This document shows, in pieces, positions 1 to 29,685 of a stretch of DNA of 64,000 bases. Under the pieces are notes generated by a model that made no database searches, was not told the DNA's origin, and worked only from the letters and a program-made list of their open reading frames with translations. The position numbers and the translations under genes are program-made. Each line of letters begins with the position of its first letter. The stretch's first letter is position 1. This DNA comes from Pseudomonadales bacterium (GTDB taxonomy: Bacteria; Patescibacteriota; Microgenomatia; UBA1400; PJMF01): NCBI GenBank assembly GCA_020632235.1, contig JACKFY010000001.1, positions 159,334 through 223,333 on the forward strand, in the 5' to 3' direction.

Positions 1-2929
1 TCTTGATTACAATATCAACTAATCTGTTCAAGAACTTAGGAAAATCTTCAACTTGGATTCTATCCCTATATTCTTTCAGGATTAGTTCCTGAATCGTTTG
101 CTTGACACCTTTCAAGAACTCCTCTCTCTTTGATGAATTTTGCCAACCCTCATCAAGAACACTTTCCAGCCGTTTAGCTAAATCTCTAGAGAGTGAGATA
201 AGCACTTTCTGATCAGTTTCTGGTAAAAATTCCTGTGAGATAACGAGCAACCCATACTCTCTCAAGTTCAAACCCAACTCCCTTGCCTCATCTGATTTGC
301 TCTTAATGTCGTTCATTAAGTCGTAGTAGCGTTTGATTCTCTCTGAGAGGTCAATTTGATGTTGCTCAAACTCTTTACGAATAGCGGTCAATCTTTCACT
401 GAACTTCTGAAACACAGGGTTGGTGTCGATGTTAATGGAAATCTCCTGCTTGAGCATCTTCTCAAGGTTGAGAGCTTTCTCTTCATCATCCATTTTGTCT
501 AACCGTTCCAGAGTATAGATGTCGTTAATATTAAGCTCCCTGAAACTTTTGGTAATTCCTTCATAATCTAGATTCTCTTGGATTAATTTCTTGACCTTCT
601 GGCCATACTCGCCAAAGGTAGGAATACTACCATCTCTAAAAGCCTCCATGGCCAAGTTTTCTGGACGAAACTCGTTGATAAAGGCAATATAGACACTGGT
701 AGTCCATTCAAAAGTCCTGATGTACTGAGCCAAGAACGGATCAGGAGAGAGCACCTCAAACAACAATTTTAATCGGGAATATTTGTCAGTGAAGTATCGT
801 TGTTTACCTTCATTGTCTATAAAAATCTTGAGACAAGTTCTTAAATTTTCAATCGAAGGATCTTCTTGATTGATGCCAACAAAAATATCTTTAATCTCAC
901 CCAGTACTTCAAGAAATTCCTGCTTGAGATGATCCAAATCAATCATGGCTGAATCGATAATGCTCTCATCAAAATTCAGGGCATCGTAGAGATTTCTGGT
1001 AATTCCATAGTAGTCAATAATCTTTCCGCAACCCTTATTAGGATAGGTTCTGTTAGTTCTGGCGATTGCCTGTAAGAGATTATGATCTCGTAGTGGTTTA
1101 TCCAGGTACATAGCTTGCTCTATTGGAGCATCAAATCCTGTCAACAACATGTCACACACTAAGAGCAACTTGAGAGTACTATTAGGATCTTTGAATGATT
1201 CAATAATTCGTTCTCTTTGAGACTTGGTGGTGTTATATTTTCTGAGGTGCTCTTTGTCTAAATTAGGGTCGCCAGAAGAATAAACCACCTCTGACCATTC
1301 AGGAGAAATTAATTCATCAAACAACTCTTTATACCTAGCCGTTGATTCTCTGTCATAACAGACTACTTGTGCCTTAAAACCATTCGGCTCGATATAAAGT
1401 CGATAATGATCCACAATATCCTGAGCAACTGCTCGCATTCGCTTGTCTAGCTTGATTAGGGCTTCTTTTTTACCAAACCGTTTCATTACCAGTTGCTTTT
1501 GCTCTTCAGATAACTCTGTGGTCATTTCGTCAAACTGTTGGTCAACCCGATCCTCATCTATAAAAAACTTAGATAACCTAGCCTCATATGTTACAGGTAG
1601 AGTTGCGCCATCATCGATGGCTTGCTGAATGGAGTAATAGTCAAGATATCTTTCACCCTCTTGACCAAAGTTCCTGTGAGTATTGAGTGTAGTTTTGTCG
1701 ATTGGTGTGCCAGTAAAACCAAAGAAAAAGGCTTTTCCCATAGAGTCGCGCAACTTAATCGCGGCCACGCCTTCGTTAGTTCTGTGTGCTTCATCGGAAA
1801 GCACAATTACATTCTCATTCGGATTATCCAAACCGAGTGGTAGTTCATTGAACTTCTCAATGGTTGAGATAAAAATACCTCGTTCATCGTTAATGATTTT
1901 CTTCTCAAGATCACGCCTAGAAGTCACTCGAATAACGTTCTTACCTCCAGCGTTAGTGAAGGTGTCATAAATCTGGTCGTCAAGATCAATCCGATCTACC
2001 AAGACAAACACCTTCGGATTTTTCAATTCCTTAGAAAACCTCAGCTTCCAAGCAGTAAAAAACATGGTCAGTGACTTGCCAGATCCTTGAGTGTGCCAAA
2101 TTAAACCTCGTCTTTTCTCTCCATCCTGGACTCTCTCCAAAATTTTATTAGTAGCTCTGAGTTGTTGATAGCGAGCCATCTTTTTAATTCGTCCGTCTTT
2201 TGTCTGTTCAAACAAAATAAAGTTCTTGATGATATCCAGCAACCTCTCTTTGGAGAGTAATGCCACCAAGGTCATTTCAAGCTGCCCATCAAGTTTTTCC
2301 TCTAGCTCTTCATCCCGCCACTGCAAAAAATACTGCTCTGGAGCATAGGTTGTGCCGTAGACAGTCTTGAGCCCATCGGTGGCAATATTAAACATGTTTG
2401 GCCAAAAAAGCTTCATCGCTACTCGCTCATAACGCTTAATTTGACCTACTGCATTCTCATAACTGACACTAGTGGAAGCAGTGGGGCTTTTGGCTTCAAT
2501 ATCAACTACTGGAATACCGTTCAAGAAGATCATCACATCAGTTCTGATGTTTTCCAAATTACCTTCAAAATAAAACTGGTTGGTAACTACAAAGTGATTA
2601 TTTTCAATATTGTCATGATCCACCACCACATAATCTCTCATCTTGCCTGTTGCAGGATCTTTAATGTTGATTCCATTACGCAACAAATTCAAAAAACCTT
2701 CATTAGAATCAATCTTTTTTACTTCTCTCACCACACTTTGCACTTCAGTATCATCGGTCAAATTATTAATTCGCTTTATCGCTTCTACAAGGTGAGACGT
2801 AATTAAATACTGATTTTCAAGCTCACGCAGGAGCGCAAACTCATCCGATTTGATGTACTCATAACCAAGGGTTTCGGCTAAGAACTTAATAATGTGATTT
2901 TCGACTGTGTATTGTTCGTTAAATTTCAT
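1..2929 (-). CDS. hsdR: Type I restriction enzyme R subunit HsdR (C-terminus runs off window start)
   Basis: Minus-strand ORF with ATG at 2929-2927 and no stop in the window. The translation contains SF2 helicase motifs (GSGKS Walker A, VLSDEAHRT DEAH box, TGTP). It directly follows hsdM/hsdS in the same operon. Confidence 0.85.
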   Translation of the reverse strand, partial: MKFNEQYTVENHIIKFLAETLGYEYIKSDEFALLRELENQYLITSHLVEAIKRINNLTDDTEVQSVVREVKKIDSNEGFLNLLRNGINIKDPATGKMRDYVVVDHDNIENNHFVVTNQFYFEGNLENIRTDVMIFLNGIPVVDIEAKSPTASTSVSYENAVGQIKRYERVAMKLFWPNMFNIATDGLKTVYGTTYAPEQYFLQWRDEELEEKLDGQLEMTLVALLSKERLLDIIKNFILFEQTKDGRIKKMARYQQLRATNKILERVQDGEKRRGLIWHTQGSGKSLTMFFTAWKLRFSKELKNPKVFVLVDRIDLDDQIYDTFTNAGGKNVIRVTSRRDLEKKIINDERGIFISTIEKFNELPLGLDNPNENVIVLSDEAHRTNEGVAAIKLRDSMGKAFFFGFTGTPIDKTTLNTHRNFGQEGERYLDYYSIQQAIDDGATLPVTYEARLSKFFIDEDRVDQQFDEMTTELSEEQKQLVMKRFGKKEALIKLDKRMRAVAQDIVDHYRLYIEPNGFKAQVVCYDRESTARYKELFDELISPEWSEVVYSSGDPNLDKEHLRKYNTTKSQRERIIESFKDPNSTLKLLLVCDMLLTGFDAPIEQAMYLDKPLRDHNLLQAIARTNRTYPNKGCGKIIDYYGITRNLYDALNFDESIIDSAMIDLDHLKQEFLEVLGEIKDIFVGINQEDPSIENLRTCLKIFIDNEGKQRYFTDKYSRLKLLFEVLSPDPFLAQYIRTFEWTTSVYIAFINEFRPENLAMEAFRDGSIPTFGEYGQKVKKLIQENLDYEGITKSFRELNINDIYTLERLDKMDDEEKALNLEKMLKQEISINIDTNPVFQKFSERLTAIRKEFEQHQIDLSERIKRYYDLMNDIKSKSDEARELGLNLREYGLLVISQEFLPETDQKVLISLSRDLAKRLESVLDEGWQNSSKREEFLKGVKQTIQELILKEYRDRIQVEDFPKFLNRLVDIVIK

Positions 2930-2930
2930 A

Positions 2931-3701
2931 TTATTTTTGTTTTTCTTGTTTGACTTTTTGAATGCTAAACAACCTACTCGGATCATAAGAATTAGAATCG
3001 ATCCTGTACAATCCCTTTTTCGGATGTTTGACAAAGATTGTTCTTATTGGATTTGCAAAGTTATTCAAGTCTTGAAAATCAGAAACAACAGTTACTTTGT
3101 CTGCGAAAAACTCATTTATTCTATTAAAAATTTCCTCAGTTGTAGCAACTCTTTGAGATTTATATTCACTGTCATTGTATAAACGAATCGAGAACAACGA
3201 AATTGACGTTACTGACAGTGTGATGAAGAAAATAAATAATATGGAACCAATCCAAACAACTTGACTAAAATTTATTAATAGTACAAATGATATAAGCGAA
3301 AACAGTAAGAATAAAAACCCTAAATCAATTGCCGTCATGCTCTTTGGATACGCTGGCCACTGTACTGTAGCTTTGTATTTTTCTGCTTCTTCAATTCCTT
3401 TTTCGAGAATAAGCTTATTAATCTCGTCGTTAATTTGGTTTCGCTTTTTGTTGTACCCAACACTATCCCAAGGAAACAATATAAATGGATTGAGCAATCT
3501 GCTTCTCAAGACAAAAACTCCAAGTATTAATCCAATTGAAATAATAAGTGCGACCAAACTTGATGCCTTATATATTTCTTCATTGCCAGAAAAAAACACT
3601 ACAAAACTTTCATTCAAGGAATATTGAGAAATTGCCACGGCTACGGCAGCAATAAAACCAATATTTTGAAGCAAATCAGCTAAAAATGAGTTTTTGTTCA
3701 T
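2931..3701 (-). CDS. hypothetical membrane protein (about 4 TM helices) embedded in the RM operon
   Basis: 256-aa ORF with four hydrophobic helices. Its stop lies 2 nt from the hsdR start and its start 2 nt from the stop of the upstream gene. No recognisable family. Confidence 0.5.
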   Translation of the reverse strand: MNKNSFLADLLQNIGFIAAVAVAISQYSLNESFVVFFSGNEEIYKASSLVALIISIGLILGVFVLRSRLLNPFILFPWDSVGYNKKRNQINDEINKLILEKGIEEAEKYKATVQWPAYPKSMTAIDLGFLFLLFSLISFVLLINFSQVVWIGSILFIFFITLSVTSISLFSIRLYNDSEYKSQRVATTEEIFNRINEFFADKVTVVSDFQDLNNFANPIRTIFVKHPKKGLYRIDSNSYDPSRLFSIQKVKQEKQK

Positions 3702-3702
3702 A

Positions 3703-4548
3703 TTATTTTTTCCCTAACAGTTTTTTCATTTTGTCTGAAAAATTTTTTGCTTTGTCGCTTCTACTTCTGATTTCCTCAAGCAGATAAGTGAGAATAGCTT
3801 TTATTGTTTCTGCCAGATCCAGGCACTCCTCATCTGTTTTATCGTGGATTCCATCACTTAAGGCTGAATGTAAAGCCTTTAAAGGATTAAATCCATCTGG
3901 CTGAAGCGACGAGGGAAGCAAATCTTGAACAAGTTCAATTTTTTCCTCTGTAACCCTAGTTTTCTTAACTTTCTCTAATGCTGCCTGATACCTTGCTTTG
4001 TCTTCCTCATCGAGTAAATCAGTGATGGAGTTCAATAGCTCATCTATGACATTTTCAGTAATCCGTCTGAAATATGCATACGAACCGATACCATAACTTT
4101 GGGATTCGCAAACTAAACCTTTTTTGTACAGTCCGGCATCTTCACTCAACGCCTTTGCTAGGTTCTGATCGATATCGATTTCCCAAGGCGGAGTTTGGCC
4201 GATCTTCCATACGTAGCCAATATAATTATTTTCATCCGATTTACTCTTTCCAGTTTTTATAAACTCTAAAAAGAATTTGAACTCGTAACTGTTACAAGAT
4301 GAACAAATATATTTGACTCGAAAAGTACTCCCCCAAACATCAGTATTTCTTGCGGTAGATTGATTAGATGCATGAACTTCCCAATAGTTATTGTTATTAT
4401 TAAATGTCTGAACAGATTTGCAGACCTTGCAATACATATTAATTGCAGGTTGTCCAATATCAGTGATGGAATCAGCGTGATAAGGCAATTCCAGCAAGAG
4501 CTTCTTATACAGAGGATATGATTCTAAAAATTGTTTTGTGATTATCAT
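3703..4548 (-). CDS. hypothetical protein with Cys-pair zinc-ribbon-like N-terminal region and an alpha-helical C-terminus resembling DUF4145
   Basis: 281-aa ORF with CKVC...CSSC cysteine pairs. The C-terminal segment (ALHSALSDGIHD...TIKAILTYLLEEI) resembles the DUF4145 domain, which often accompanies Type I RM and abortive-infection loci. The assignment is from memory and not verified. Confidence 0.4.
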   Translation of the reverse strand: MIITKQFLESYPLYKKLLLELPYHADSITDIGQPAINMYCKVCKSVQTFNNNNNYWEVHASNQSTARNTDVWGSTFRVKYICSSCNSYEFKFFLEFIKTGKSKSDENNYIGYVWKIGQTPPWEIDIDQNLAKALSEDAGLYKKGLVCESQSYGIGSYAYFRRITENVIDELLNSITDLLDEEDKARYQAALEKVKKTRVTEEKIELVQDLLPSSLQPDGFNPLKALHSALSDGIHDKTDEECLDLAETIKAILTYLLEEIRSRSDKAKNFSDKMKKLLGKK

Positions 4549-4549
4549 A

Positions 4550-5710
4550 TTAATTTATAGTTACTTTCTGACTAAAAATATCTTGCATGAGGCCTTTTTT
4601 TAGAGATATTAGAGTGTTTTTTTGTTTAATCTCACTTTCTATTTTAATATCAAGTTTGCAAAGTATATCTGCTATTTTTTGTTGCTCATCTGAGGAAGGT
4701 TTTGGAACGTACAAATTCTTTATATGCTTTAGACTCAGGGTCTTTTGATTTGACCCCACAACCTGCTTAGCAACCTGCTCAGTGGGAATTGGAGACTGTA
4801 AAGCGTAATAGAGATATTTACCATTTATTAATGGAGATATTATTGCTGTGTTTTGTCCTAAACAAAACTGCTTCGTTGTTGCCACATAAGAAAATACACC
4901 AAAGGAACCTACTCTGCTTATGACGATGTCGCCTTGCGCTGGAACATGATTTTTTGTGAATAGGTCATAAACCTTTTTTTCAACTTTGATACAACTAGAC
5001 AGATCTAGGTCACCTTGCTTAATATCAATAACTCTAACCATTGGCAATCCATCACCTGAATACTTTGGTGTTTGATGCAGAGAATCCACGACCTTTGCCA
5101 CTAAACTAAGCATTTTTATTTCCCACTCCTCAGGAATTTCACCCAATTTTGTCTTCTTAAACTTCTTGTGTCCTATTCCTTTGGTCAACAACTCACTCAT
5201 CAAACCTTGCTTGAGCTTCTCAGTTTTTTGAATTATTTGATCAGTTTTCTCAATCGTTTCATCAATTGTAGATAAAATATCGGCAACTTTTGCCTGAATT
5301 TTTAATGATGGATTTAGTATTTTTATTTTGTTTAATGAAGCTTGATTTAACTTTCCCCTGGTTGTTCCAGAAATGTAATTTCTCAGATCTGAGTAATTGA
5401 GATAATTCATTACGAACTGGATATTGGCATTTTTTATTCTCAGAACATGAGCATGGTTATTTACCCAACTCTTACCGTTAATGATAAATGCCGTGTTGGC
5501 TCCACCTGACCAGTCAGCTCCATCTTCGCCAATAAGCAGCAATTCCTCATCAAATATGTAGTCATTAACATAGTCAACAATCCCCGTTGCGCCATAGTAG
5601 GGAATATCACCAGATTTCCTCTTTAACTTAGCAACAGGCACTCTTTTGCTATCTAAGTTTTCAGATATATCGCTTATTGTTGTTGTGGGCCATTTATTTG
5701 TCATATTCAT
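4550..5710 (-). CDS. hsdS: Type I restriction-modification specificity subunit HsdS
   Basis: 386 aa with two target-recognition-domain halves separated by a conserved central helical region (LKQGLMSELLTKG), which is typical HsdS architecture. Confidence 0.85.
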   Translation of the reverse strand: MNMTNKWPTTTISDISENLDSKRVPVAKLKRKSGDIPYYGATGIVDYVNDYIFDEELLLIGEDGADWSGGANTAFIINGKSWVNNHAHVLRIKNANIQFVMNYLNYSDLRNYISGTTRGKLNQASLNKIKILNPSLKIQAKVADILSTIDETIEKTDQIIQKTEKLKQGLMSELLTKGIGHKKFKKTKLGEIPEEWEIKMLSLVAKVVDSLHQTPKYSGDGLPMVRVIDIKQGDLDLSSCIKVEKKVYDLFTKNHVPAQGDIVISRVGSFGVFSYVATTKQFCLGQNTAIISPLINGKYLYYALQSPIPTEQVAKQVVGSNQKTLSLKHIKNLYVPKPSSDEQQKIADILCKLDIKIESEIKQKNTLISLKKGLMQDIFSQKVTIN

Positions 5711-6042
5711 TTCTTAAACAAACCAATTATTGAATCAAATCCGTACTTGATGGGAGCTAGTAATGCCTTTTCTGCTGATATAACTACCAACCTTGTTCTC
5801 CAGGGATAAGCTGCTCCACACTCATGACAGTTCCAAGGAACTTCTTTTTTAGTAAGATCCAAAACACTATCTGAATGGTACTTACCTCGAATTTTTGCTT
5901 GGCAAATCAAACATTTAGTAACTGTTTCACCACCACATTTATCACACCGCTTCTGCCTATGGTTTGGTGAAGAATCGTAGTAGGCGGTAATTTGATTACC
6001 GCACCTGCGACACACTTGCATCGTGTCGTAATAATTACTCAT
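5707..6042 (-). CDS. small zinc-ribbon protein (four CxxC motifs)
   Basis: 111 aa with CRRC...CDKC...CLIC...CHEC. It has 4-nt ATGA-type overlaps with both neighbouring genes, which suggests translational coupling inside the RM operon. Confidence 0.5.
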   Translation of the reverse strand: MSNYYDTMQVCRRCGNQITAYYDSSPNHRQKRCDKCGGETVTKCLICQAKIRGKYHSDSVLDLTKKEVPWNCHECGAAYPWRTRLVVISAEKALLAPIKYGFDSIIGLFKK

Positions 6043-6935
6043 TCTCCTAACTCCTTTCTCTTCTGCGGTACCAATTCCTCACCAGTCCCTATCATATCGG
6101 TGACATCACCGGCATGATCGCTGCCCTTGCCCAAGTAGTTACTCCCAGTTACTACTTTTCTTCCTGTCTCTTGTTCTAATTTCTTTCTGGCATCACCAGC
6201 AATATTACCGCCACGCTTGGCTACATGTTTGTTTTGGGTAAATCCTTGAGGGTGTTCTGATTTAGTAATCTCGGTGGTCGATGCTTCACCAAGCATGGAG
6301 AACAATAATTCTAAATCGCTCATGTGATCGCGCAGATTTTCTCGTTTGAGTCCTTTTACTTTCTTATGGGCAGAAGGAGTAATACCAAAGGCAGCCTTTG
6401 ATATTTCTGCCGTCAAGATCGCATATTCTTTCGATTCTTCAATACCATGCTTTTGCCATTCATCTGTGAGTTCTTCACGAATTGCGATCGAACGCATTCT
6501 TCTTTCGATCCATTCATCAGGATAGCCTTTTGCTTTGTATAAAGCTCTAGCTCTTTTTTGGGCAAGCTCGGGATCTTCAATTTCCTGAATTCGCTCATAG
6601 CCTACTTTTGCCAACCAACGTTTGAAGGGTTCTGCTTTGGGTGAAGGAACCGATTGAATAATACGAAAAATCCCCTCAGTATTGGCGCAGTTTACCTTTT
6701 GCTTACCTCCGGCTGTTTGTATCAAAAGGGGGGTGACAATTTGTCCATACCCTTTTGCCAACTCCTCATCACGCTTTCTCATTTTGCTGAGATAGTCTTT
6801 GGGATTGACGCTATCAGTTAGAGCCACAATGACATCTTCGACTACAAACCACCATTCATTTTTATGGATGGTTTTGCGGATCTCTTTTTTTCTAAAAATA
6901 GCAATTTTAGTCAATTCACTGATTTGTTTATTCAT
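6039..6935 (-). CDS. Bro-N/ORF6N-like (antirepressor/RhuM-like) DNA-binding domain protein
   Basis: The N-terminal segment EWWFVVEDVIVALTD...NPKDY...KRWLAKVGYERIQE matches the Bro-N-type fold found in phage antirepressors. The gene lies between hsdM and hsdS, a position where RhuM/Bro-like genes are known to occur. Confidence 0.5.
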   Translation of the reverse strand: MNKQISELTKIAIFRKKEIRKTIHKNEWWFVVEDVIVALTDSVNPKDYLSKMRKRDEELAKGYGQIVTPLLIQTAGGKQKVNCANTEGIFRIIQSVPSPKAEPFKRWLAKVGYERIQEIEDPELAQKRARALYKAKGYPDEWIERRMRSIAIREELTDEWQKHGIEESKEYAILTAEISKAAFGITPSAHKKVKGLKRENLRDHMSDLELLFSMLGEASTTEITKSEHPQGFTQNKHVAKRGGNIAGDARKKLEQETGRKVVTGSNYLGKGSDHAGDVTDMIGTGEELVPQKRKELGE

Positions 6936-8619
6936 AGCCTAGCTCCTTAATAAAACCTGTAACCTTTTTATCGATTTCGTCTCTTTCGGTTTCCAGCTGC
7001 TTAATTTCACCCCAAACCTGCTTAACATCAATCACTTCCTGCTCATCACTGGAATCGATGTAACGCCTGATGTTGAGATTAAAATCATTTTCTTCGAGTT
7101 CATCAGTATCAACCACGCGAGCGTATTTCTCCACGTTCTCATACTTGTCATAAGACGAAACAATCTTATCTATATCCTTCTTCCTTAGGGTATTTTGGTT
7201 TTTGCCTTCCGCATAGTCACGCTCAGCATCAACAATCAGAACCCTGCCTTTTTTATGTTCAGGCTTGTTCCTATTAAAAATTAAAATAGCTGCCGGGATG
7301 CCGGTACCATAGAACAACTTAGAAGGCAGAGCGATAACCGCTTCCAGGAGATCATTCTTGATGATCTGCTCACGGATCCGACCCTCGCTGCCTCCCCGGA
7401 ATAAAACTCCGTGGGGAAGAACCACGCCCGCCCTACCGTTGGCATTCATAGATTTCAAGATGTGGAGCACGAAAGCGTAATCGGCGTTTTTCTTTGGTGG
7501 TTGATCGTAACCCTCAGTACGACCATACTTATCGCTTTTAAATAGCTCAAATTCCCAGTCTTTGATGGAGTAAGGGGGATTAGCCACTACGATATCGAAT
7601 GTCTGTAGGTTGCCCATATTGGTCAAGAACTGGGGGTTGGCCAGCGTGTCGCCTCTCCTGATATCGGCGCTATCCAATCCATGCAAGAACATGTTGATCT
7701 TGGCGATGGCAAAAGTGCTGATGTTGATTTCCTGGCCATAGAGATAAAGAGTTCTAGCAATTTGCTCACCTGATTTATCCTTGAGATAGTTGTAGGCTTC
7801 AAGCAGGAAACCGCCAGAACCTACTGTAGGGTCATAGATGTGATCTTTTTGGTGAGGTTTAACAATACCAATAATGATTCGCTCAACTTCTCGAGGGGTA
7901 TAAAACTCTCCGCCCTTCTTGCCAGCATCAGCGGCGAACTGCTTGATCAGGTACTCATAAGCATCGCCAAGCAAATCCGAGCTTATGTAATTGCTGCCAA
8001 AGTTGTATTGGGAAAAATGGTTAACCAACCTCTGGAGTGTCTCATTAGGGAAGCGGTCTTTGTTGGCAAAATCCAGATCATCAAAAATCTTGTCCAGCTT
8101 AGGACTATTAACATTAGTAATCTTGTCAAAAACATCATTAAGCTTCTGCCCAATGCCCTCTGAAGTTTCGGCGATCACCTGCCAACTGCAATCTTTAGGT
8201 ACTTGAAAACGGTGATTGTAATCAGCGGCGGCCAGAGTCTTGTCGCCGTACTCACCCATTACACTCTGGTACTCCTCGTCCCAAACATCGCTTATCCGTT
8301 TATAAAACAGTAGTCCAAAGATATATTTCTTATAGTCAGAGCTGTCGATTTTACCTCTTAAGATATCTGCCGACTTCCATAAGAATTGCTCAAGCTGAGC
8401 TAAAGTGAGTTTACTACTCATTTCCTCTGCCAAAAGCTGGATGTCTTGCTTACGATATTTGCGGTCCTGTCTCGGCCCAACTCTAAGAGGAGTGAGTTTG
8501 CCAGCTTTCTCCCAATTTCTCAGGGTATCACGGTGGATTTTGAATAAATCAGCTACTTCCCCGATGGTTAGAAGGTCTGGTGTATCTTCAATAACTTTTT
8601 GAGTGATGCTTTTGCTCAT
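6928..8619 (-). CDS. hsdM: Type I RM N6-adenine DNA methyltransferase HsdM with N-terminal MerR/excisionase-type HTH extension
   Basis: The HsdM N-domain (LEQFLWKSADILRGKID) is present, together with an AdoMet-binding region and the VANPPYSIKDW motif IV. The first ~60 aa (LTIGEVADLFKIHRDTLRNWEKAGKL) form a MerR/Xis-like HTH. Confidence 0.9.
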   Translation of the reverse strand: MSKSITQKVIEDTPDLLTIGEVADLFKIHRDTLRNWEKAGKLTPLRVGPRQDRKYRKQDIQLLAEEMSSKLTLAQLEQFLWKSADILRGKIDSSDYKKYIFGLLFYKRISDVWDEEYQSVMGEYGDKTLAAADYNHRFQVPKDCSWQVIAETSEGIGQKLNDVFDKITNVNSPKLDKIFDDLDFANKDRFPNETLQRLVNHFSQYNFGSNYISSDLLGDAYEYLIKQFAADAGKKGGEFYTPREVERIIIGIVKPHQKDHIYDPTVGSGGFLLEAYNYLKDKSGEQIARTLYLYGQEINISTFAIAKINMFLHGLDSADIRRGDTLANPQFLTNMGNLQTFDIVVANPPYSIKDWEFELFKSDKYGRTEGYDQPPKKNADYAFVLHILKSMNANGRAGVVLPHGVLFRGGSEGRIREQIIKNDLLEAVIALPSKLFYGTGIPAAILIFNRNKPEHKKGRVLIVDAERDYAEGKNQNTLRKKDIDKIVSSYDKYENVEKYARVVDTDELEENDFNLNIRRYIDSSDEQEVIDVKQVWGEIKQLETERDEIDKKVTGFIKELGYE

Positions 8620-8689
8620 GCTCTCAATAATATCAGTATTTTAGAAAATGTCAATAAATATCTTTCATAGGTATTCATAGGTTTGATTG

Positions 8690-9019: not shown

Positions 9020-9922
9020 TTATCTGATAGCGGCTCTACTTACCGGTCCATCCAACTCATTGGAGAAGCTAATCAGCTGACCGCCACTAGTAAAGGCGAT
9101 GGAGATGCTTGGTGTTTCTGTGGATTCGTAGACCTTAATACAGGGAACCCCATTGCCGTTGTAATACAAGCCCTCAACGTCTTTATTTAAGTCCTCGCTA
9201 CAGGTTTCAAGCGGTGGGTTATGCTGGACAGTTTGGGCTTCGCCTCTCCAAATGAAGAAATAATTTACCCTACCGTTACCACCATCTTTCCTACCAGTTT
9301 CCAATGCCAGCTTACTCAGATCAATGTCGCCAATAGCTGAGGAGTGTTTGGCAATAAAGCTTCTGGCAAGTCGTTCGACTTCCTCCTGAGAGTAATTTGC
9401 CGAGTAATCATATTCTTTGCCTTCACTAAACCAACGGCTGCCATCGATTTTGTATCCCCAAGTCCCGGGAGTTTCTTCTACCTGCAGGACATGATTAGTT
9501 TCAGGATCCACAATAAAGTAAGTTAAACCAACTATATAAGTCTCACCTTTAGCGGGAATAAGCTTATCTTCTTCCAAGCTATAAAAAGCGTTACTACACT
9601 CATATTCCACTTCCACAGTTGGCATTTCCAGGAAATCACGAACAGAGGCAATAGCTTTCTCTCGCTCTTCCACCGGCCGCGCCGTCAGAGAACATAGCTT
9701 TTCTCTCAATTCCTTGGTGGCTTGAGCAGTATGGTCCCGATATTTAGGGTCGGTACTGAGCTTTTCGGTGATCTCTTTGATCTCCTGAACCCTTTGGTTC
9801 TCAGTTTGTTGAGTTCTATAAGACTGGTATTTTGAACGCGTCACATTAAGCCCAAAGTAAATCACCACCAGGAGCAAAATAACCAGAGCTAATCGTTGAA
9901 AATTTTTCATTGTCATATTCAT
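9020..9922 (-). CDS. hypothetical protein with N-terminal signal-anchor (secreted or membrane-anchored)
   Basis: 300-aa ORF with an N-terminal hydrophobic segment LALVILLLVVIYFGL. No recognisable family. Confidence 0.5.
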   Translation of the reverse strand: MNMTMKNFQRLALVILLLVVIYFGLNVTRSKYQSYRTQQTENQRVQEIKEITEKLSTDPKYRDHTAQATKELREKLCSLTARPVEEREKAIASVRDFLEMPTVEVEYECSNAFYSLEEDKLIPAKGETYIVGLTYFIVDPETNHVLQVEETPGTWGYKIDGSRWFSEGKEYDYSANYSQEEVERLARSFIAKHSSAIGDIDLSKLALETGRKDGGNGRVNYFFIWRGEAQTVQHNPPLETCSEDLNKDVEGLYYNGNGVPCIKVYESTETPSISIAFTSGGQLISFSNELDGPVSRAAIR

Positions 9923-9989
9923 AATTATCCTCCTTTCCTCAAGGTTTGCCGATGTTAGCTTCGTTAGCCATCGGTTGTCAAATCTTCTC

Positions 9990-10055
9990 TCGGTTTCACT
10001 AAAATCACCCTTTTCACTTATTAGTGAAAGTACCCGATTTAGTGAAAATCACCAG
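9990..10055. promoter_or_regulatory. cluster of direct and inverted repeats (TTTCACT / AGTGAAA, AAAATCACC) in a divergent intergenic region
   Basis: The sequence TTTCACTAAAATCACCC-TTTTCACTTATTAGTGAAAG-...-TTAGTGAAAATCACC includes the perfect palindrome TTCACTTATTAGTGAA. It is a candidate operator, or origin-associated site, upstream of the 10156 ORF. Confidence 0.3.
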
Positions 10056-10155
10056 AGGCAATTTACACAAATAAACAGTAACTATCACAAAGTTTATTGA
10101 GATAAACATACGGTCCCGGCTAGGCTAGACATAGTTAATTTTAATCTGAATTTCT

Positions 10156-10410
10156 ATGTCACAAGCAAAACCTGCCACTTATCTCACCAGCGACCTTGCT
10201 CTCGCTACCACCATCTCCCTTAACTTTCCTATTGCAGATATTGATCGAGCCAATCCGCGCAAAGCGGTTTTTGTGTTTCAGCGGTCCCCGGAATTGGAAG
10301 CCTTAGTTGATTCTTACTTCACCCATCAGCTCAAAGTTTCTCCACAGATATTTTTCAACCAGTTACGTGATGTCAAAGCCAGGCTCTATGCCGAAAAACG
10401 ACCATGGTAA
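10156..10410 (+). CDS. hypothetical small protein
   Basis: 84-aa ORF downstream of the repeat-containing intergenic region. No family recognised. Confidence 0.3.
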   Translation: MSQAKPATYLTSDLALATTISLNFPIADIDRANPRKAVFVFQRSPELEALVDSYFTHQLKVSPQIFFNQLRDVKARLYAEKRPW

Positions 10411-10533
10411 GCCAACAACTATTACTCGAGCTGAAGAAAATCATCGAAGAAGACTATGGAATCAAACTAACTTTGGCCGAAGTCATGGAAGTGGCAACCA
10501 CCCTGGTCCAGTTTGCTGAAGTGGCCATGAAGA

Positions 10534-11070
10534 TTGAAGCCAAACCAACAGCTCTTAAGAAGCTTTGTTCAACAAATGAAAATGAAGATGTCAAAACAAC
10601 AACCCACAGACAATCTGTACCTCCAAATCTGGAGAAACCCTATTTTCAAGAATCTTCTTTTGGCGCAAGTAACAGCCGACCAATGGCATACCTTTACTGC
10701 TCTGGCAGTCTTCATGAACAAAAAGGGCGAATGTTACCCGTCTCAGAATAAACTCCAGATACTTGGTTTAAATAGTGTGGCTAGCGTGAGTAGAAGAATT
10801 GCCTCTTTAGAGAAGGCACGTTTTGAAGGCGAACCTTTAATCAAAGTCTTTCGAGATAAAAAGATGAAACGTAAAGGCAAATTCCTCTTTGCCAGCAATG
10901 GCTATCAGCTTAATCAAAACATCATTACTATCTTCGCTCCGCATGACACCACCATCGCATATAGGCGACAACAAATGGAAGCACTCAAAGAACTTAAGGC
11001 TAAAACCTTGGATTCATTAAGCATGGCTGCGTCACGGAAAGACGATAAACAAACTAGAAGGAGTTTTTAA
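10534..11070 (+). CDS. helix-turn-helix protein resembling plasmid/phage replication-initiator HTH (HTH_36-like)
   Basis: The segment CYPSQNKLQILGLNSVASVSRRIASLEKARF is typical of Rep-like winged-helix/HTH proteins. An iteron-like array follows immediately downstream. Confidence 0.4.
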   Translation: MKPNQQLLRSFVQQMKMKMSKQQPTDNLYLQIWRNPIFKNLLLAQVTADQWHTFTALAVFMNKKGECYPSQNKLQILGLNSVASVSRRIASLEKARFEGEPLIKVFRDKKMKRKGKFLFASNGYQLNQNIITIFAPHDTTIAYRRQQMEALKELKAKTLDSLSMAASRKDDKQTRRSF

Positions 11071-11184
11071 CAAAAAATTTAACGAAAACGGCGCCGTTTA
11101 TGAAAGACAAATCAATAGTAAAATCAACAGAACAACTTATAAGGAAGCTTGGTCAATTCCCGGTCAGAAATTGGTCAACTTTTT

Positions 11185-11440
11185 TGGGTGGGCAGAAGGT
11201 GGGCAAAATGCGGGCGGATTTAGAGGATTTTCAGGCTAAACAGGGTGTACAAAAGGTGGACAGAAATAGGACGGAAATACTTCACCAACGCTTCACTGAA
11301 ACTTCACCGGATTTTAGAGCTCTTAGCCTGAAAACCCTTCGGCAGCGCTTCGGCGCAGCTTCGGTGGTTTTGGAGAAGATTAGCCAAGAAAAATGTCGGC
11401 AACGTAACGGCAAACTGTCGGTGGTTTCGAACACATTTCT
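11185..11440. repeat. iteron-like array of short direct repeats with about 11-bp periodicity
   Basis: GGTGGGCA x2 plus TGCGGGCG, GGTGTACA/GGTGGACA, CTTCACC x3, CTTCGGC x3 and TGTCGGC x2, each set spaced by about 11 nt. The track ORF 11100-11543 covering this region is probably not coding. Confidence 0.5.
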
Positions 11441-11539
11441 CCTGCTTCCGTGTATAGCCCAATATATGCGGAATGTCCTGATTCAATTTGATATTCCCTC
11501 GAGTTACCTATATGTTGTTGTGTTGAAAAAGCCAGTCTC

Positions 11540-12797
11540 ATGAAAAGCGTTATATTCTGCCGAGTCTCCAGCAAAGAACAGGAAGAAACGGGCTACTCGC
11601 TCCCGGCGCAGGAGAAGTTCCTCAGAGAATATGGTGATAAACAAGGCTTGGAAGTTAAAAAAGTCTTTGCTATTTCCGAGTCAGCAGCAGGCAAAAGCCA
11701 ACGCAAGGTCTTTGAGGAAATGATCACCTATGTTAGGAAACAGAATATCTGTGCCATCATTGTCGAAACCACCGACCGTTTGACCAGAAACTTCTCCGAC
11801 GTGCCAACTATCGACCAATGGATTACCGAAACGAAACCACCAGATTCACTTAGCCAAAGAAGCCTGTGTCCTGCACAACTCCTCCTGTTCCACGAATGGT
11901 TTATGGCGGGTTAAAGTTGCTACTGCCGAGTATTACGTCCGCCTCCTTTCCGAGAATGTGAAGAAGGGACAAAAGAAAAGCTGGCACAAGGCTGGCTACC
12001 GACCAGACCACCGCTTGGCTACAAACTGTCGGCGAAACCGGCCACAAAATCCACATTATTGATGAAGGCGCTTCTAGGCTGGTGATCAAAATGTTTGAAC
12101 TCTCTGCCTCCGGCGATTATTCCATCAAGAAACTGGCCAACACCATGTATAAGGAAGGCATGAGATCGCCTCAGGGAAATAAGCTGGCGGTCAGTCGAAC
12201 ACACTCCCTACTGCGCGATCCCTTCTATATGGGTAAGATTAGATGGAACGATGAGATTTATGAAGGCAAACAGGAACCATTAATCAGTAAAGAAGTATTC
12301 GATAAAGTTCAGAAGTTACTCAAAAGCAAAACCACACCCACTTATATGAAACACAGTTATTTATTCAAAGGTTTAATTCGCTGCGCTACCTGCAAAGGGC
12401 TGATCACCTGGGAGTTTCATAGTGGCCATCGTTACAGCCACTGCAACCACTACAACGAATGTGATCAGGAAACCCGCACGAGGCAGTTTCTAGAAGAATG
12501 GACAAGTTATACGACGACAAACTTGATGAAAAAATCACCCAGGAGTTTTATAACCGCAAGTTTAAGCAGTACTCAAAGGAAAAAGACGAGCTGACTGAAA
12601 CCATCAAGAGGCACTCCACCGCCAGCACCGGTTACCTGAATCTGGGCATCAACCTCTATGAACTCTCTCAGCGGGCCAAAGAAATCTACTTAACCGCCAA
12701 AAGAAGGAGATGCTAGACGAACAACGCGCACTTATAAGGCTGGTCTTTAAGAAACTCATCTTAGATGAAGGAAAACTCAGCTGGGAATACTCCTGAG
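11540..12797 (+). pseudogene. large serine recombinase (resolvase/integrase family) disrupted by frameshifts
   Basis: The resolvase catalytic N-domain (VIFCRVSSKEQ...) is in ORF 11540-11914. The SENVKKGQKK...GYRPD segment is readable only in another frame at 11915-12080. The recombinase-domain plus zinc-ribbon piece (CATCKG...HCNHYNEC) is in 12082-12594, and the coiled-coil tail is in 12498-12716, continuing in yet another frame to about 12797. Confidence 0.7.
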
Positions 12798-12941
12798 CCT
12801 TTAAGATCCTGTCTGAGGCAGTAAGTCAGACAAATTGTTCTAAAGTGGAAAATTTGGAGGGTTTGAAAAAGAAACTTTCGAACATCGAGAAAGAGCGATG
12901 TTTCGGGACAAAGGACTCTTTGTTGCCCTCTCATGCCATCT

Positions 12942-13013
12942 GGCCCCCGGGAGGATTCGAACCTCCAACCTACCGGTTAACAGCCGGGCGCTCTGCCATT
13001 GAGCTACAGGGGA
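12942..13013 (-). tRNA. tRNA-Asn (anticodon GTT), no encoded CCA, predicted 1:72 T-C mismatch
   Basis: The reverse complement reads TCCCCTG-TA-GCTC-AATGGCA-GAGC-G-CCCGG-CTGTTAA-CCGGT-AGGTT-GGAGG-TTCGAAT-CCTCC-CGGGGGC-C. This gives a cloverleaf with the GTT anticodon and a canonical T-loop, and the 3' end faces the recombinase pseudogene. Confidence 0.6.
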
Positions 13014-13029
13014 TTGTTAAGTATCTTTA

Positions 13030-13090
13030 TCAGCCGGGCGCCCTGCTTGCGCAGGCAGGTCTGCACAGTGAGCCACAGGGTGTCACCTTG
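13030..13090. repeat. degenerate partial duplicate of the tRNA-Asn 5' half
   Basis: CAGCCGGGCGCCCTGC...CTGCACAGTGAGCCACAGGGTG parallels CAGCCGGGCGCTCTGCCATTGAGCTACAGGGG within the tRNA. Confidence 0.35.
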
Positions 13091-27418: not shown

Positions 27419-27905
27419 TTGTTGTTTTTGACTCTGATTGCACTTCTGTAATGGCTCGTAATCACGAAAAGCTCTCAAGAGAAATGACACGCTTGGACCT
27501 GGTTGAAGCTATTACAATAGCTACGACAATGATAGTGTATGGGGAAAAACAACATGGACTTGCAAATCAAAGCATGCCGCGTTCTAAGCGAATAAGAATG
27601 ATGGAGTACCTTAAAAATGTGTTGGTTCTTAATATCACTGGTGATGCGCCAAAAATATATGGACAGCTATGCTTTGATTTAACTAACTGATTTAAAGAAA
27701 AGTTTAAAAAAGCATGCAAACAAAAAGAGGCAAAGAAAAAGGCTAAGGAAGAAGTAAAAAAATGCATAATGACATCTGGACGGCTGCTATTTGCATAGAG
27801 AACAAAGCTTTACTATATTCAAGAGATCAAGATTTTGCGAAAATAAAAGCCGTAGACGATAGAGTATCTTGGGTTGACTGCAGAGATCTGTTATCTAATA
27901 GCTAA
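27415..27905 (+). pseudogene. PIN-domain (VapC-like) nuclease gene disrupted by an A-rich insertion with an in-frame stop and a frame change
   Basis: The N-terminal piece (27415-27690, MIVVFDSDC...APKIYGQLCFDLTN) ends at TGA. The C-terminal piece (about 27759-27905, MHNDIWTAAICIENKALLYSRDQDFAKI...) is a canonical VapC C-terminus but lies in the -1 frame. The two are separated by about 70 nt of lysine-codon-rich sequence containing an A7 run. The start overlaps the cas12a stop (ATGA). Confidence 0.6.
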
Positions 27906-28467
27906 TTTTATGCACTCCTACATCCAACTCTCAAAACTCAATGATTTCTTGTTTTGCCCGTACTCTGTTTACTTGAAATCCATCTACGACGGTTTCAAGT
28001 CAGACACCTATCATGCTACTCCGCAAAAACGAGGCAAAATCCATCACAAAGCGATAGATGAAGGCACCTATTCTTCTTCAACCCGCTACCTGCAGGGGCT
28101 TTCTGTCTATTCTGAAAAATATAACATAGCGGGGAAAATAGATATTTACGATACAGAGAAAAAAGCTCTAGTCGATCGAAAATACAAAGTAAAAGCCGTC
28201 TACGACGGGCATCGTTTTCAACTGTTTGGACAGTACTTTTGTATGGCGGAGCGAGGGTATGAGGTTGAAAAACTGTTTTTACACTCATTATCAGACAATA
28301 AACGCTATGAGGTGGCACTACCAGAGGGAATATGGCTTGAAAAGTTTGAGCAATTGGTTGTACGCATGCAGAACCCAGAAAACTATGAAAAAGACCCCGA
28401 TGTAACAATTGAAAAATGTCAAAATTGTATCTATAGTGTGCTGTGCCCGTATGCTAAGTCTGCCTGA
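27874..28467 (+). CDS. cas4: Cas4 (RecB-like nuclease with 4Cys Fe-S cluster)
   Basis: A single Cys (FLFCPYS) lies near the N-terminus and a C-terminal C-x2-C-x5-CPY cluster (CQNCIYSVLCPY) follows. It is positioned between cas12a and cas1. The true start may be the internal Met (MHSYIQL) at 27910. Confidence 0.85.
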   Translation: MTAEICYLIANFMHSYIQLSKLNDFLFCPYSVYLKSIYDGFKSDTYHATPQKRGKIHHKAIDEGTYSSSTRYLQGLSVYSEKYNIAGKIDIYDTEKKALVDRKYKVKAVYDGHRFQLFGQYFCMAERGYEVEKLFLHSLSDNKRYEVALPEGIWLEKFEQLVVRMQNPENYEKDPDVTIEKCQNCIYSVLCPYAKSA

Positions 28468-29407: not shown

Positions 29408-29685
29408 TTGTTGTTGCCTACGATATCAGTAAGACGTCAAAGAGAACGAAGTTCTCCAAATTTTTAGAAAGGTACGGAGACCGCATTCAGTACTCGGTTT
29501 TTGTGTGCAAAAATAGCAAGCGAATTATGGAAAATATCACCACCGAGATAGAACATCACTTTGCCAAGTATTTTGATGCTGAAGACAGCGTGTTTGTGTT
29601 CACTACGTGTCAGAGTTGTGACAAGAAAACGCTCAAATATGGCAATGCTTCTCACTATGAAAAAGATGTGATATATTTTGGCTAG
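29404..29685 (+). CDS. cas2: Cas2
   Basis: 93-aa MIVVAYDIS... Cas2 fold signature, immediately upstream of the leader and array. Confidence 0.9.
   Translation: MIVVAYDISKTSKRTKFSKFLERYGDRIQYSVFVCKNSKRIMENITTEIEHHFAKYFDAEDSVFVFTTCQSCDKKTLKYGNASHYEKDVIYFG

What the first reader, a model, noticed from the sequence alone, without database searches (positions are those of the whole stretch)
1..8619. Type I RM operon carrying four tightly coupled accessory genes between hsdM, hsdS and hsdR
From the sequence: the gene order on the minus strand is hsdM, a Bro-N-like protein (298 aa), a zinc-ribbon protein (111 aa), hsdS, a 281-aa protein, a 256-aa 4-TM protein, then hsdR. Every junction is an overlap or a gap of 2 nt or less (ATGA-type overlaps), so all seven genes are almost certainly co-translated from one transcript. 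From established knowledge: Type I RM loci are frequent hosts for inserted defence or abortive-infection modules such as PrrC, RloC, AbiEii and RhuM. By inference: the 281-aa protein (Cys-pair N-terminus, DUF4145-like helical C-terminus) plus the TM protein between hsdS and hsdR could be an uncharacterised RM-coupled effector pair, for example a membrane-acting abortive-infection module triggered by RM failure. The locus is AT-rich relative to the core genome.
Basis: partly seen in the sequence, partly recalled or inferred. Interest (0 to 1): 0.75.

Follow-up and report, generated by a model that had tools for sequence, protein, structure and literature searches.

The report
Restriction operon carrying four swappable passenger genes
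A complete Type I restriction-modification operon has four extra genes packed into its two inter-subunit gaps; they are four independent, exchangeable passengers (one already a listed anti-phage candidate, three unlisted), not a matched effector pair, which makes this a good but not unprecedented example of defence genes embedded in a defence system.

Summary
On the minus strand lie hsdM, a 298-aa Bro-N protein, a 111-aa zinc-ribbon protein, hsdS, a 281-aa protein (P281), a 256-aa four-helix membrane protein (TM256) and hsdR. The junctions are -8, -4, -4, +1, +1 and +1 nt, and one strong promoter sits upstream of hsdM.

- P281 and TM256 are not a pair. None of 80 P281 loci carries TM256, and none of about 13 TM256 contexts carries P281.
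- Sister operons with 73-96% identical HsdM and 65-95% identical HsdR carry different cargo in the same two slots: PDC-S13 variants, PDC-S19, PDC-S47, a ThsB-TIR pair, or nothing.
- DNA homology breaks at gene boundaries.

The parts:
- Bro-N is PADLOC candidate PDC-S13.
- P281 is a widespread family with no Pfam or PADLOC entry. It has an invariant Cys4 zinc ribbon and a weakly HEPN-like helical domain. It is mostly solitary, but 16 of 80 loci place it in or beside Type I or III RM.
- TM256 is a tiny family, mostly RM-embedded, with weak SLATT-like hits.

No DUF4145 sequence match and no Rx4-6H motif were found. The kind of system is known (guilt-by-embedding; DarTG2 between hsdS and hsdR). 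Defence function and mechanism are inferred, not shown.

The parts
8627..8654 (-). Promoter-like site for the whole operon (TTGACA, 16 nt, TG-TATTAT). The -10 element ends 7 nt before the hsdM ATG, which implies a nearly leaderless mRNA.
   Evidence: 11 of 12 matches plus an extended -10; sequence.
6928..8619 (-). hsdM: Type I methyltransferase with a fused N-terminal MerR/HTH_17 DNA-binding domain (residues about 16-66).
   Evidence: N6_Mtase 2.8e-108, HsdM_N 6.4e-27, MerR_1 1.5e-08; MTase_I 7.9e-149. The same architecture is seen in sister loci.
6039..6935 (-). Cargo 1 (hsdM-hsdS slot): 298-aa Bro-N protein, PADLOC phage-defence candidate PDC-S13. It overlaps hsdM by 8 nt.
   Evidence: PDC-S13 2.8e-116, positions 4-270 of 286; Bro-N 1.9e-13; phrog_15286 5.3e-93.
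5707..6042 (-). Cargo 2 (hsdM-hsdS slot): 111-aa protein with four CxxC pairs and a C-terminal helix. It matches only the N-terminal half of DUF2321. ATGA overlaps on both sides.
   Evidence: PF10083 1.4e-22, profile positions 1-83 of 157; weak Lar-like restriction-alleviation PHROG, 0.0035; found only in hsdM-hsdS slots.
4550..5710 (-). hsdS: specificity subunit with two target-recognition domains.
   Evidence: Methylase_S 2.3e-40, 2 stretches. One search shows the first half is homologous to L098 and the second half is replaced.
3703..4548 (-). Cargo 3 (hsdS-hsdR slot): P281. It has an N-terminal beta-rich domain with an invariant Cys4 zinc ribbon (about residues 1-120) and a C-terminal six-helix domain (about 125-281) with invariant H235. 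It has no Pfam or PADLOC entry.
2931..3701 (-). Cargo 4 (hsdS-hsdR slot): TM256. It has four transmembrane helices, an inferred N-in/C-in topology, a charged cytoplasmic helical insert between TM2 and TM3, and a small C-terminal beta domain.
   Evidence: 10 close homologues; 33 representatives in 1.84 billion proteins; alignments; AF2 pLDDT 73.9; weak hits to 4TM, SLATT and PycTM effector models.
1..2929 (-). hsdR: Type I restriction/translocase subunit. It is cut about two codons before its end by the window edge.
   Evidence: start at 2929, open to base 2; HSDR_N, SWI2_SNF2, T1R_D3-like, T1RH-like_C; 95% identical to the 978-aa HsdR of L098.

Best explanation
This is one complete Type I restriction-modification operon (MerR-HTH-HsdM, HsdS, HsdR). 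Its two inter-subunit junctions act as cargo slots. In this genome the hsdM-hsdS slot holds a Bro-N protein (PADLOC candidate PDC-S13) and a DUF2321-type double zinc-ribbon protein. The hsdS-hsdR slot holds P281 (Cys4 zinc-ribbon domain plus a HEPN-like helical domain) and TM256 (a four-helix membrane protein).

Shown here:
- All seven genes sit behind one promoter with overlapping or 1-nt junctions.
- The four cargo genes are mutually independent one-gene cassettes, gained and lost on a conserved RM scaffold.

Inferred:
- The cargo are autonomous second-line anti-phage modules that use the RM operon for co-expression and co-transfer.
- P281 most likely works as a single-protein sensor-effector in the manner of RAZR/PD-T7-4. 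Its zinc-ribbon domain would bind a phage component, and its helical domain would oligomerise and act on RNA or another target, using the invariant histidine but without the canonical arginine.
- TM256 most likely is a SLATT-like membrane-permeabilising abortive-infection effector with cytoplasmic sensing domains.
- Bro-N and DUF2321 may instead be DNA-binding or regulatory accessories of the RM complex.

The confidence of 0.65 is for the whole statement. The modular-cargo part alone I put at about 0.85, a defence role for P281 at about 0.55 and for TM256 at about 0.45.
For: Operon:
- Junctions of -8, -4, -4, +1, +1 and +1 nt.
- A single 11-of-12 promoter match upstream of hsdM, and terminator-like sites not above shuffled expectation.

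Modularity:
- HsdM and HsdR of L098 are 96% and 95% identical to the window's, yet its cargo is a different PDC-S13 variant plus DUF2321, and an unrelated 277-aa protein plus DUF3644/PDC-S19.
- Cargo on other sister scaffolds:
  - L087, L081: Bro-N and TM256
  - L085: ThsB-TIR/PDC-M50 pair and TM256
  - L089: TM256 alone
  - L096: TM256 and a PDC-S47-like gene
  - L001, L014: P281 alone
  - L007: P281 and an unrelated 228-aa membrane/zinc-ribbon protein

- DNA homology to the sister loci stops and restarts within a few nt of gene boundaries.

Autonomy:
- 64 of 80 P281 loci have no RM gene within 5 kb. A sample of 150 neighbouring ORFs from them shows no conserved partner.
- A TM256 relative is solitary in a serine-recombinase element next to an Mrr-type nuclease.

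RM and defence association:
- It occurs downstream of McrBC on a Bacillus plasmid and as an opposite-strand insert among the head genes of a temperate Rhizobium phage.
- Distant TM256 relatives sit directly before hsdR, directly after hsdM, or beside a Type III RM.

Architecture:
- P281 has invariant C40, C43, C82, C85 and H235 and a confident model.
- RAZR is a Cys4 zinc ribbon plus a divergent HEPN domain and acts alone (PMC13017515).
- Five hits from TM256 family members to SLATT, PycTM or 4TM effector models, best 4.4e-06.

Precedent:
- Guilt-by-embedding (bioRxiv 10.1101/2024.01.29.577857).
- DarTG2 between hsdS and hsdR, with that site described as a 'potential recombination hotspot' (PMC12255303).
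Against: - No function was tested. Defence is inferred from context only.
- P281 has no Pfam DUF4145, PD-T7-4 or other PADLOC match in the window protein. None of 26 family members or 3 divergent relatives hits DUF4145 in Pfam.
- The HEPN Rx4-6H motif is absent (S231 stands where an arginine would be expected), so RNase activity is doubtful.
- TM256 close relatives were found only inside this RM lineage, which equally fits a role tied to the RM enzyme.
- Bro-N-like modules are fused to HsdS in one PADLOC specificity model, hinting at an RM-accessory rather than an autonomous role.
- RM detection in the 80 loci used phmmer with a handful of seed proteins, and many loci are short, so the counts are lower bounds.
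Confidence: 0.65

Rival explanations
1. P281 and TM256 form a two-gene sensor/effector pair coupled to the RM enzyme, a membrane-acting abortive-infection module fired when restriction fails.
For: - The two genes are adjacent with 1-nt gaps in the window.
- L007 also has P281 followed by a membrane protein before hsdR.
- TM256 close relatives always lie next to hsdR.
- There are weak effector-model hits.
Against: - 0 of 80 P281 loci contain a TM256 homologue.
- None of the TM256 contexts contains P281.
- The 228-aa protein of L007 is unrelated to TM256.
- Relative to L087, P281 is a clean insertion. Relative to L001, TM256 is a clean insertion.
- Most P281 genes are solitary.
Confidence: 0.05
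2. Some or all cargo proteins are accessory subunits or regulators of the RM enzyme rather than separate defences. Examples would be a Lar-like zinc-ribbon protein that tempers restriction during establishment, a Bro-N DNA-binding adaptor, or a membrane tether for HsdR.
For: - DUF2321 relatives were seen only in hsdM-hsdS slots, in two RM lineages that are about 30% identical.
- There is a weak match to the Lar-like restriction-alleviation PHROG.
- PDC-S13-like proteins align to the first 270 positions of a 717-aa HsdS model, which implies natural Bro-N-HsdS fusions.
- TM256 lies in or beside RM in about 10 of 13 contexts.
- Translational coupling suggests matched expression.
Against: - Cargo differs between nearly identical RM scaffolds, and L089 and L096 have empty hsdM-hsdS slots, so none of it is needed for the enzyme.
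- P281 is mostly solitary. A TM256 relative is solitary in a mobile element.
- The Lar hit is far below significance for membership, and Pfam shows no Lar family match.
Confidence: 0.2
3. The cargo genes are selfish hitch-hikers or addiction-type genes that insert into RM operons because those operons are hard to lose, and they give the host no anti-phage benefit.
For: - Cassettes are naked ORFs with no regulatory DNA of their own.
- The operon lies in an integrative island with a serine recombinase remnant beside tRNA-Asn.
- Neighbours of solitary P281 genes include integrases and resolvases.
Against: - Sister-slot cargo includes families with defence pedigrees: a ThsB-type TIR, and PADLOC candidates PDC-S13, S19 and S47.
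- No transposase, repeats or att-like sites flank the cassettes.
- P281 is strongly conserved across phyla, with 45 invariant columns among 26 sequences at about 50% identity. This points to selection on a cellular function.
Confidence: 0.1

Closest known systems
Defence genes embedded in Type I RM operons: 'guilt-by-embedding' PDC candidates in PADLOC (Payne et al., bioRxiv 10.1101/2024.01.29.577857); DarTG2 between hsdS and hsdR in EPEC (PMC12255303); PrrC
   Same: - Extra genes are nested between hsd genes and co-transcribed.
- The hsdS-hsdR junction is a recurrent insertion site.
- The Bro-N gene is itself PDC-S13.
- Sister loci carry PDC-S19, PDC-S47 and PDC-M50 in the same slots.
- Sister loci also have a YgjP-like metallopeptidase gene after hsdR, as in the EPEC island.
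   Different: - Four cargo genes occupy both slots at once.
- Three of them (P281, TM256 and this DUF2321 form) have no model in PADLOC v2.
- The regulator is an HTH domain fused to HsdM rather than a separate RptR gene.
- The hosts appear to be mostly candidate-phyla-radiation-type bacteria.
RAZR / PD-T7-4 (ring-activated zinc-finger RNase; PMC13017515)
   Same: - A single polypeptide with an N-terminal Cys4 zinc-ribbon domain and a C-terminal helical HEPN-type domain.
- It acts as a stand-alone gene.
- DUF4145-type HEPN proteins are known to be fused to zinc ribbons and to sit in RM operons (PMC3710099).
   Different: - P281 has no sequence match to DUF4145 or to the PADLOC PD-T7-4 model.
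- It lacks the catalytic arginine (RAZR has R146 and H154; P281 has only H235).
- Its N-terminal domain is about twice as long (about 120 aa, beta-rich).
- The structural similarity to HEPN is weak.
SLATT, CBASS 4TM and Pycsar TM membrane effectors
   Same: - Small multi-pass membrane proteins with cytoplasmic extensions, encoded inside defence operons.
- A few TM256 family members hit RT-associated SLATT, PycTM and 4TM effector models.
   Different: - The hits are weak (best 4.4e-06; the window protein scores 0.003) and occur in a minority of members.
- There is no Pfam SLATT match for the window protein.
- No nucleotide-signalling or reverse-transcriptase partner is present; the neighbours are RM subunits.
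Integron-like or hotspot cassette exchange (for example P2/P4 defence hotspots)
   Same: Conserved flanks with rapidly changing single-gene cargo. Homology breaks at cassette edges.
   Different: - No attC-like repeats and no dedicated integrase at the slots.
- The cassettes are promoterless ORFs fused almost codon-to-codon to their neighbours.

Membership tests
Type I restriction-modification system | HsdM with HsdM_N and N6_Mtase domains and the NPPY catalytic motif | tested here: met
   (2.8e-108 and 6.4e-27). NPPY is visible in the translation.
Type I restriction-modification system | HsdS with two target-recognition domains | tested here: met
   Methylase_S, 2 stretches; Specificity_I 8.9e-60, full length.
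Type I restriction-modification system | HsdR with an N-terminal nuclease domain, an SF2 motor and a Type I C-terminal domain | tested here: met
   (HSDR_N 8.4e-35, SWI2_SNF2 1.9e-70, T1R_D3-like, T1RH-like_C). The last two or so codons lie outside the window.
PADLOC PDC-S13 (embedded phage-defence candidate) | Full-length match to a PDC-S13 model | tested here: met
   PDLC04920, E 2.8e-116, residues 8-271 on profile positions 4-270 of 286.
PADLOC PDC-S13 (embedded phage-defence candidate) | Demonstrated anti-phage activity | not testable with these tools
   PDCs are candidates by context only.
DUF2321 (PF10083) | Match above the Pfam gathering score over the whole domain | tested here: inconclusive
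   80.4 bits against a 24-bit cut-off, but only profile positions 1-83 of 157 are matched. The C-terminal half is replaced by a short helix.
DUF4145 / HEPN RNases (including RAZR, PD-T7-4) | Sequence match to Pfam DUF4145, or to any PADLOC model (PD-T7-4 is assumed from memory to be among them) | tested here: not met
   - No Pfam hit for P281 at E up to 10.
- None of 26 family members or 3 divergent relatives hits DUF4145.
- No PADLOC hit at E up to 0.1.
DUF4145 / HEPN RNases (including RAZR, PD-T7-4) | Conserved Rx4-6H catalytic motif | tested here: not met
   H235 is invariant, but no arginine lies 4-8 residues upstream (the motif is L-S-x-G-x-H). No Rx4-6H occurs anywhere in the window protein. 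H-only HEPN families are described (PMC3710099).
DUF4145 / HEPN RNases (including RAZR, PD-T7-4) | HEPN helical-bundle fold | tested here: inconclusive
- Foldseek against the PDB: no hit with E at or below 0.001.
DUF4145 / HEPN RNases (including RAZR, PD-T7-4) | N-terminal Cys4 zinc-ribbon sensor domain (RAZR architecture) | tested here: met
   C40, C43, C82 and C85 are invariant. The strand-knuckle pattern is present in the model.
SLATT, 4TM and PycTM membrane effectors | Significant match to an effector model across the family | tested here: inconclusive
   - Window protein: PDLC00725, E 0.003.
- Among 26 family members: 3 hit one RT-SLATT model (best 1.3e-04), 1 hits another (4.4e-06), and PycTM is hit at 9.7e-04 and 0.075.
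- No Pfam hit for the window protein.
Conserved two-gene system (P281 + TM256) | Co-occurrence of the two genes in other genomes | tested here: not met
   0 of 80 P281 loci and 0 of about 13 TM256 contexts contain the other gene.
PrrC / RloC-type RM-embedded anticodon nucleases | ABC-ATPase N-domain plus a nuclease C-domain | tested here: not met
   No ATPase domain and no PADLOC PrrC/RloC hit in any of the four cargo proteins.

The most novel reading that the evidence does not exclude
The two inter-subunit junctions of this Type I RM lineage may be a dedicated cassette-exchange platform. Promoterless single ORFs are swapped codon-to-codon, without attC-like sites or a local recombinase. At least two of the passengers (P281, an H-only zinc-ribbon/HEPN-like protein found across many phyla including Asgard archaea, and TM256, a SLATT-like membrane protein) would be new anti-phage families. 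TM256 in particular could be gated by the HsdR motor it is almost always encoded beside, which would be a true restriction-failure fail-safe.
Probability: 0.15. Interest if true: 0.75.

Novelty: new member of a known kind. Interest (0 to 1): 0.45.

Why it matters
- It gives a compact natural series: one RM scaffold (73-96% identical HsdM, 65-95% identical HsdR) with at least eight cargo combinations. This series shows that both Type I junctions are exchange slots.
- It nominates three families absent from Pfam and PADLOC v2 as anti-phage candidates: P281, TM256 and the short DUF2321 form.
- P281 is the most useful lead. It is widespread, usually solitary, well modelled, and architecturally parallel to the recently solved RAZR sensor-RNase while lacking its catalytic arginine. 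Testing it would show whether H-only HEPN-like domains are active effectors.
- The series also offers a way to ask whether embedded genes act independently of, or through, the RM enzyme.

Tried and rejected
- DUF4145 membership of P281. Rejected at the sequence level after Pfam scans of the protein at E up to 10, of 26 family members and of 3 divergent relatives, and a profile search of PDB sequences (only a chance cytochrome hit).
- Foldseek of P281 against the PDB gave nothing. The AFDB library was unavailable.
- I tried to obtain RAZR or DUF4145 sequences for a profile-profile test from paper supplements. None are held.
- The 228-aa protein after P281 in L007 was tested as a TM256 relative and is unrelated. 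The 274-aa protein before a distant TM256 in L091 was tested as a P281 relative and is unrelated. The 277-aa and 269-aa proteins in the P281 position of L098 and L102 are also unrelated.
- A search for repeats or att-like sites flanking the cassettes found none.
- A metagenome scan with the broad TM256 alignment failed for lack of conserved stretches. The narrow alignment added only 4 loci.
- Plasmid and phage searches added few, unannotated relatives.
- The idea that the cargo genes are split fragments of Hsd subunits was rejected, because all three subunits are domain-complete.
Full report
**Observation**

ORF listing and translation confirm a minus-strand array:
- hsdM 6928-8619
- a 298-aa gene at 6039-6935
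- a 111-aa gene at 5707-6042
- hsdS 4550-5710
- a 281-aa gene (P281) at 3703-4548
- a 256-aa gene (TM256) at 2931-3701
- hsdR, starting at 2929 and running off the window start

The junctions are -8, -4, -4, +1, +1 and +1 nt. Pfam and PADLOC identify complete HsdM, HsdS and HsdR. HsdM carries an extra N-terminal MerR/HTH_17 domain.

The only strong promoter-like site is TTGACA-16-TG-TATTAT at 8654-8627, ending 7 nt before the hsdM ATG. Terminator-like sites are no more frequent than in shuffled sequence. GC content is 0.32-0.39 for five of the genes, against 0.45-0.51 for most of the window beyond 12 kb. Only two of the six junctions are literally of the ATGA type.

**What the four accessory genes are**

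- *Bro-N protein.* It matches the PADLOC model PDC-S13 over its full length (E 2.8e-116). [quoted passage not shown]
- *111-aa protein.* It matches the first 83 of 157 positions of DUF2321 and has four CxxC pairs.
- *P281.* It has no Pfam, NCBIfam or PADLOC match, even at permissive thresholds. It does belong to phrog_25239 and to a family of 426 detected proteins. An alignment of 26 members at about 50% identity has 45 invariant columns, including C40, C43, C82, C85 and H235.
  - The AlphaFold model is confident (pLDDT 84.6). It shows a beta-rich zinc-ribbon domain (about residues 1-120) followed by six helices.
- *TM256.* It has only 10 word-index homologues and 33 representatives in an exhaustive HMMER scan of 1.84 billion proteins.
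  - Its model (pLDDT 73.9) has four membrane helices, a charged helical insert and a small C-terminal beta domain.

**Are P281 and TM256 a pair?**

No.
- A scan of species-representative genomes returned 80 P281 loci. None contains a TM256 homologue.
- All TM256 contexts recovered lack P281.
- In L007, P281 is followed by a 228-aa membrane/zinc-ribbon protein that is unrelated to TM256.
- DNA comparison shows clean one-gene differences. Against L087, homology resumes at window 3705, which is the TM256 start, so P281 is the extra gene. Against L001, P281 and hsdR are homologous and TM256 is the extra gene.

**One scaffold, many cargoes**

HsdM and HsdR of the sister loci are 73-96% and 65-95% identical to the window's. 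The slots differ as follows.

| Locus | hsdM-hsdS slot | hsdS-hsdR slot |
|---|---|---|
| Window | PDC-S13 + DUF2321 | P281 + TM256 |
| L098 | a different PDC-S13 variant + DUF2321 | unrelated 277-aa protein + DUF3644 (PDC-S19) |
| L081, L087 | Bro-N | TM256 |
| L085 | ThsB-TIR + partner (PDC-M50) | TM256 |
| L007, L014 | other small ORFs | P281 + 228-aa protein (L007); P281 alone (L014) |
| L089 | empty | TM256 alone |
| L096 | empty | TM256 + PDC-S47-like gene |
| L001 | PDC-S13 variant | P281 alone |

Against L098, DNA homology (86-87%) covers only hsdM, DUF2321 plus the first half of hsdS, and hsdR. The breaks fall at gene edges. Junctions are equally tight in all siblings, and no repeats flank the cassettes. 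[quoted passage not shown]

**Context enrichment**

*P281*
- It has a Type I or Type III RM gene within 5 kb in 16 of 80 loci and directly abutting in 13. Among the 34 loci with at least 5 kb on both sides, the counts are 10 and 7.
- The embedding occurs in two Type I lineages that share only 26-30% identity, and in Type III Mod/Res operons.
- By inference, a random gene would have such a neighbour in roughly 1-2% of cases, so this is about a ten-fold or greater enrichment. A matched background was not computed.
- The remaining loci are solitary genes. A sample of 150 of their neighbouring ORFs shows no recurrent partner. Those neighbours include AbiEii/OLD-type ATPases, Ymh-type HEPN, Schlafen and Fic proteins, integrases and resolvases.
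- Divergent relatives sit downstream of McrBC on a Bacillus plasmid and as an opposite-strand insert among the head genes of a temperate Rhizobium phage.

*TM256*
- It lies between hsdS and hsdR in all close contexts (in L096 with a further cargo gene before hsdR).
- Relatives at 25-35% identity lie directly before hsdR (L092), directly after hsdM (L109), beside a Type III RM (L090), or alone next to an Mrr nuclease in a serine-recombinase element (L107).

*DUF2321*
- Relatives were seen only in hsdM-hsdS slots, in two RM lineages.

**Mechanism**

What is shown is co-transcription, tight coupling, modularity and RM association. What the cargo proteins do is inferred.

*P281*
- The closest functional analogue is RAZR/PD-T7-4. 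RAZR is a stand-alone Cys4 zinc-ribbon plus divergent HEPN (DUF4145) RNase that is activated by assembling around phage portal-like rings (PMC13017515).
- DUF4145 HEPN domains are known to be fused to zinc ribbons and to sit in RM operons (PMC3710099).
- Against membership:
  - There is no sequence match to DUF4145 in any member.
  - Foldseek finds nothing.
  - The Rx4-6H motif is missing; only H235 is conserved.
- I therefore say that P281 plausibly works like a zinc-ribbon-sensor/helical-effector protein, but I do not file it as DUF4145 or RAZR.

*TM256*
- A few family members hit RT-associated SLATT, PycTM and CBASS 4TM effector models (best 4.4e-06; the window protein scores 0.003).
- A SLATT-like membrane effector is the best guess. 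A role tied physically to HsdR is not excluded.

*Bro-N and DUF2321*
- For these an RM-accessory or regulatory role is a real alternative.
- PDC-S13-like sequence aligns to the N-terminal 270 positions of a 717-aa HsdS model, which implies natural fusions.
- The zinc-ribbon protein has a weak Lar-like PHROG hit.

**Comparison and novelty**

The kind of arrangement is known: PrrC, DarTG2 in EPEC, and the PADLOC PDC set. One of the four genes is already a listed candidate. What is new is the following:
- four cargo genes filling both slots at once;
- the clean natural swap series;
- three cargo families with no curated model, of which P281 is widespread (Bacteroidota, Patescibacteria, Proteobacteria, Planctomycetota, Asgard archaea).

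I rate this as a new member of a known kind, of moderate interest.

**Limits**
- No experiment was possible.
- RM detection in the loci relied on phmmer with seed proteins from these same loci, and many contigs are short.
- The AFDB structural library was unavailable.
- No profile-profile test against DUF4145 or SLATT could be run.

Noticed in passing
window 23477-31752: The second AT-rich block is a Type V-A CRISPR-Cas locus. It has Cas12a (1313 aa; REC1, RuvC_1 and NUC domains) at 23477-27418, Cas4 at 27874-28467 and Cas1 at 28409-29407. An array at about 29988-31752 has a 36-nt repeat, GTTTATTCAAAGTAGTCGATTTCTACTTTTGTAGAT.
   Followed up: partly
window 9020-13046: The RM operon appears to be cargo of an integrative element. 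The element holds a 300-aa N-terminally membrane-anchored protein (9020-9922, minus strand), DUF5659 (10156-10410), an HTH_36 protein (10534-11070), and a serine recombinase split into two ORFs (Resolvase 11540-11914, Recombinase 12082-12594; probably a pseudogene). tRNA-Asn follows at 12942-13013, with a 20-nt partial duplicate at 13027-13046. The same recombinase/HTH_36/DUF5659 backbone carries a solitary TM256 relative and an Mrr nuclease in L107.
   Followed up: partly
window 8619-8654: The -10 element of the operon promoter ends only 7 nt before the hsdM start codon, so the hsdM mRNA would be leaderless or nearly so. HsdM itself begins with a MerR/HTH_17 domain that could autoregulate the operon, as the separate RptR repressor does in EPEC.
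   Followed up: no
L098 8409-9242 and sister loci; window 2927-2929: hsdR always starts ATGAAATTT (MKF). The unrelated 277-aa cargo gene of L098 starts with the same nine bases. This suggests that cassettes are joined within the first codons of hsdR. Three window junctions share the string TAAtATG.
   Followed up: no
PADLOC model PDLC03083; L098 6186-7004; L001 8030-8857: Bro-N/PDC-S13-type proteins of the sister loci match the first 270 or so positions of a 717-aa 'Specificity_I' model at E 1e-81 to 1e-84. Some HsdS subunits therefore carry this module as an N-terminal fusion.
   Followed up: no
L106 (Rhizobium phage vB_RleA_TRX32-1) 2839-3708: A 28%-identical P281 relative is the only opposite-strand gene between the major capsid gene and the portal/connector genes of a temperate Autographiviridae phage. 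This is the position of a moron.
   Followed up: no
whole window; P0001/P0121: The source record names the organism a Pseudomonadales MAG. However, nearly all close relatives of the operon and its cargo come from Patescibacteria/CPR MAGs (Pacebacteria, Woesebacteria, Saccharibacteria). The taxonomic label may be unreliable, or the island may have been transferred horizontally.
   Followed up: no
L102 7333-7824 and L007 10828-11514: Other small membrane proteins occupy RM slots in unrelated lineages. One is a 163-aa protein after DUF2321. Another is a 228-aa single-pass, coiled-coil protein with a C-terminal zinc ribbon after P281. Membrane proteins may be a recurrent cargo class.
   Followed up: no
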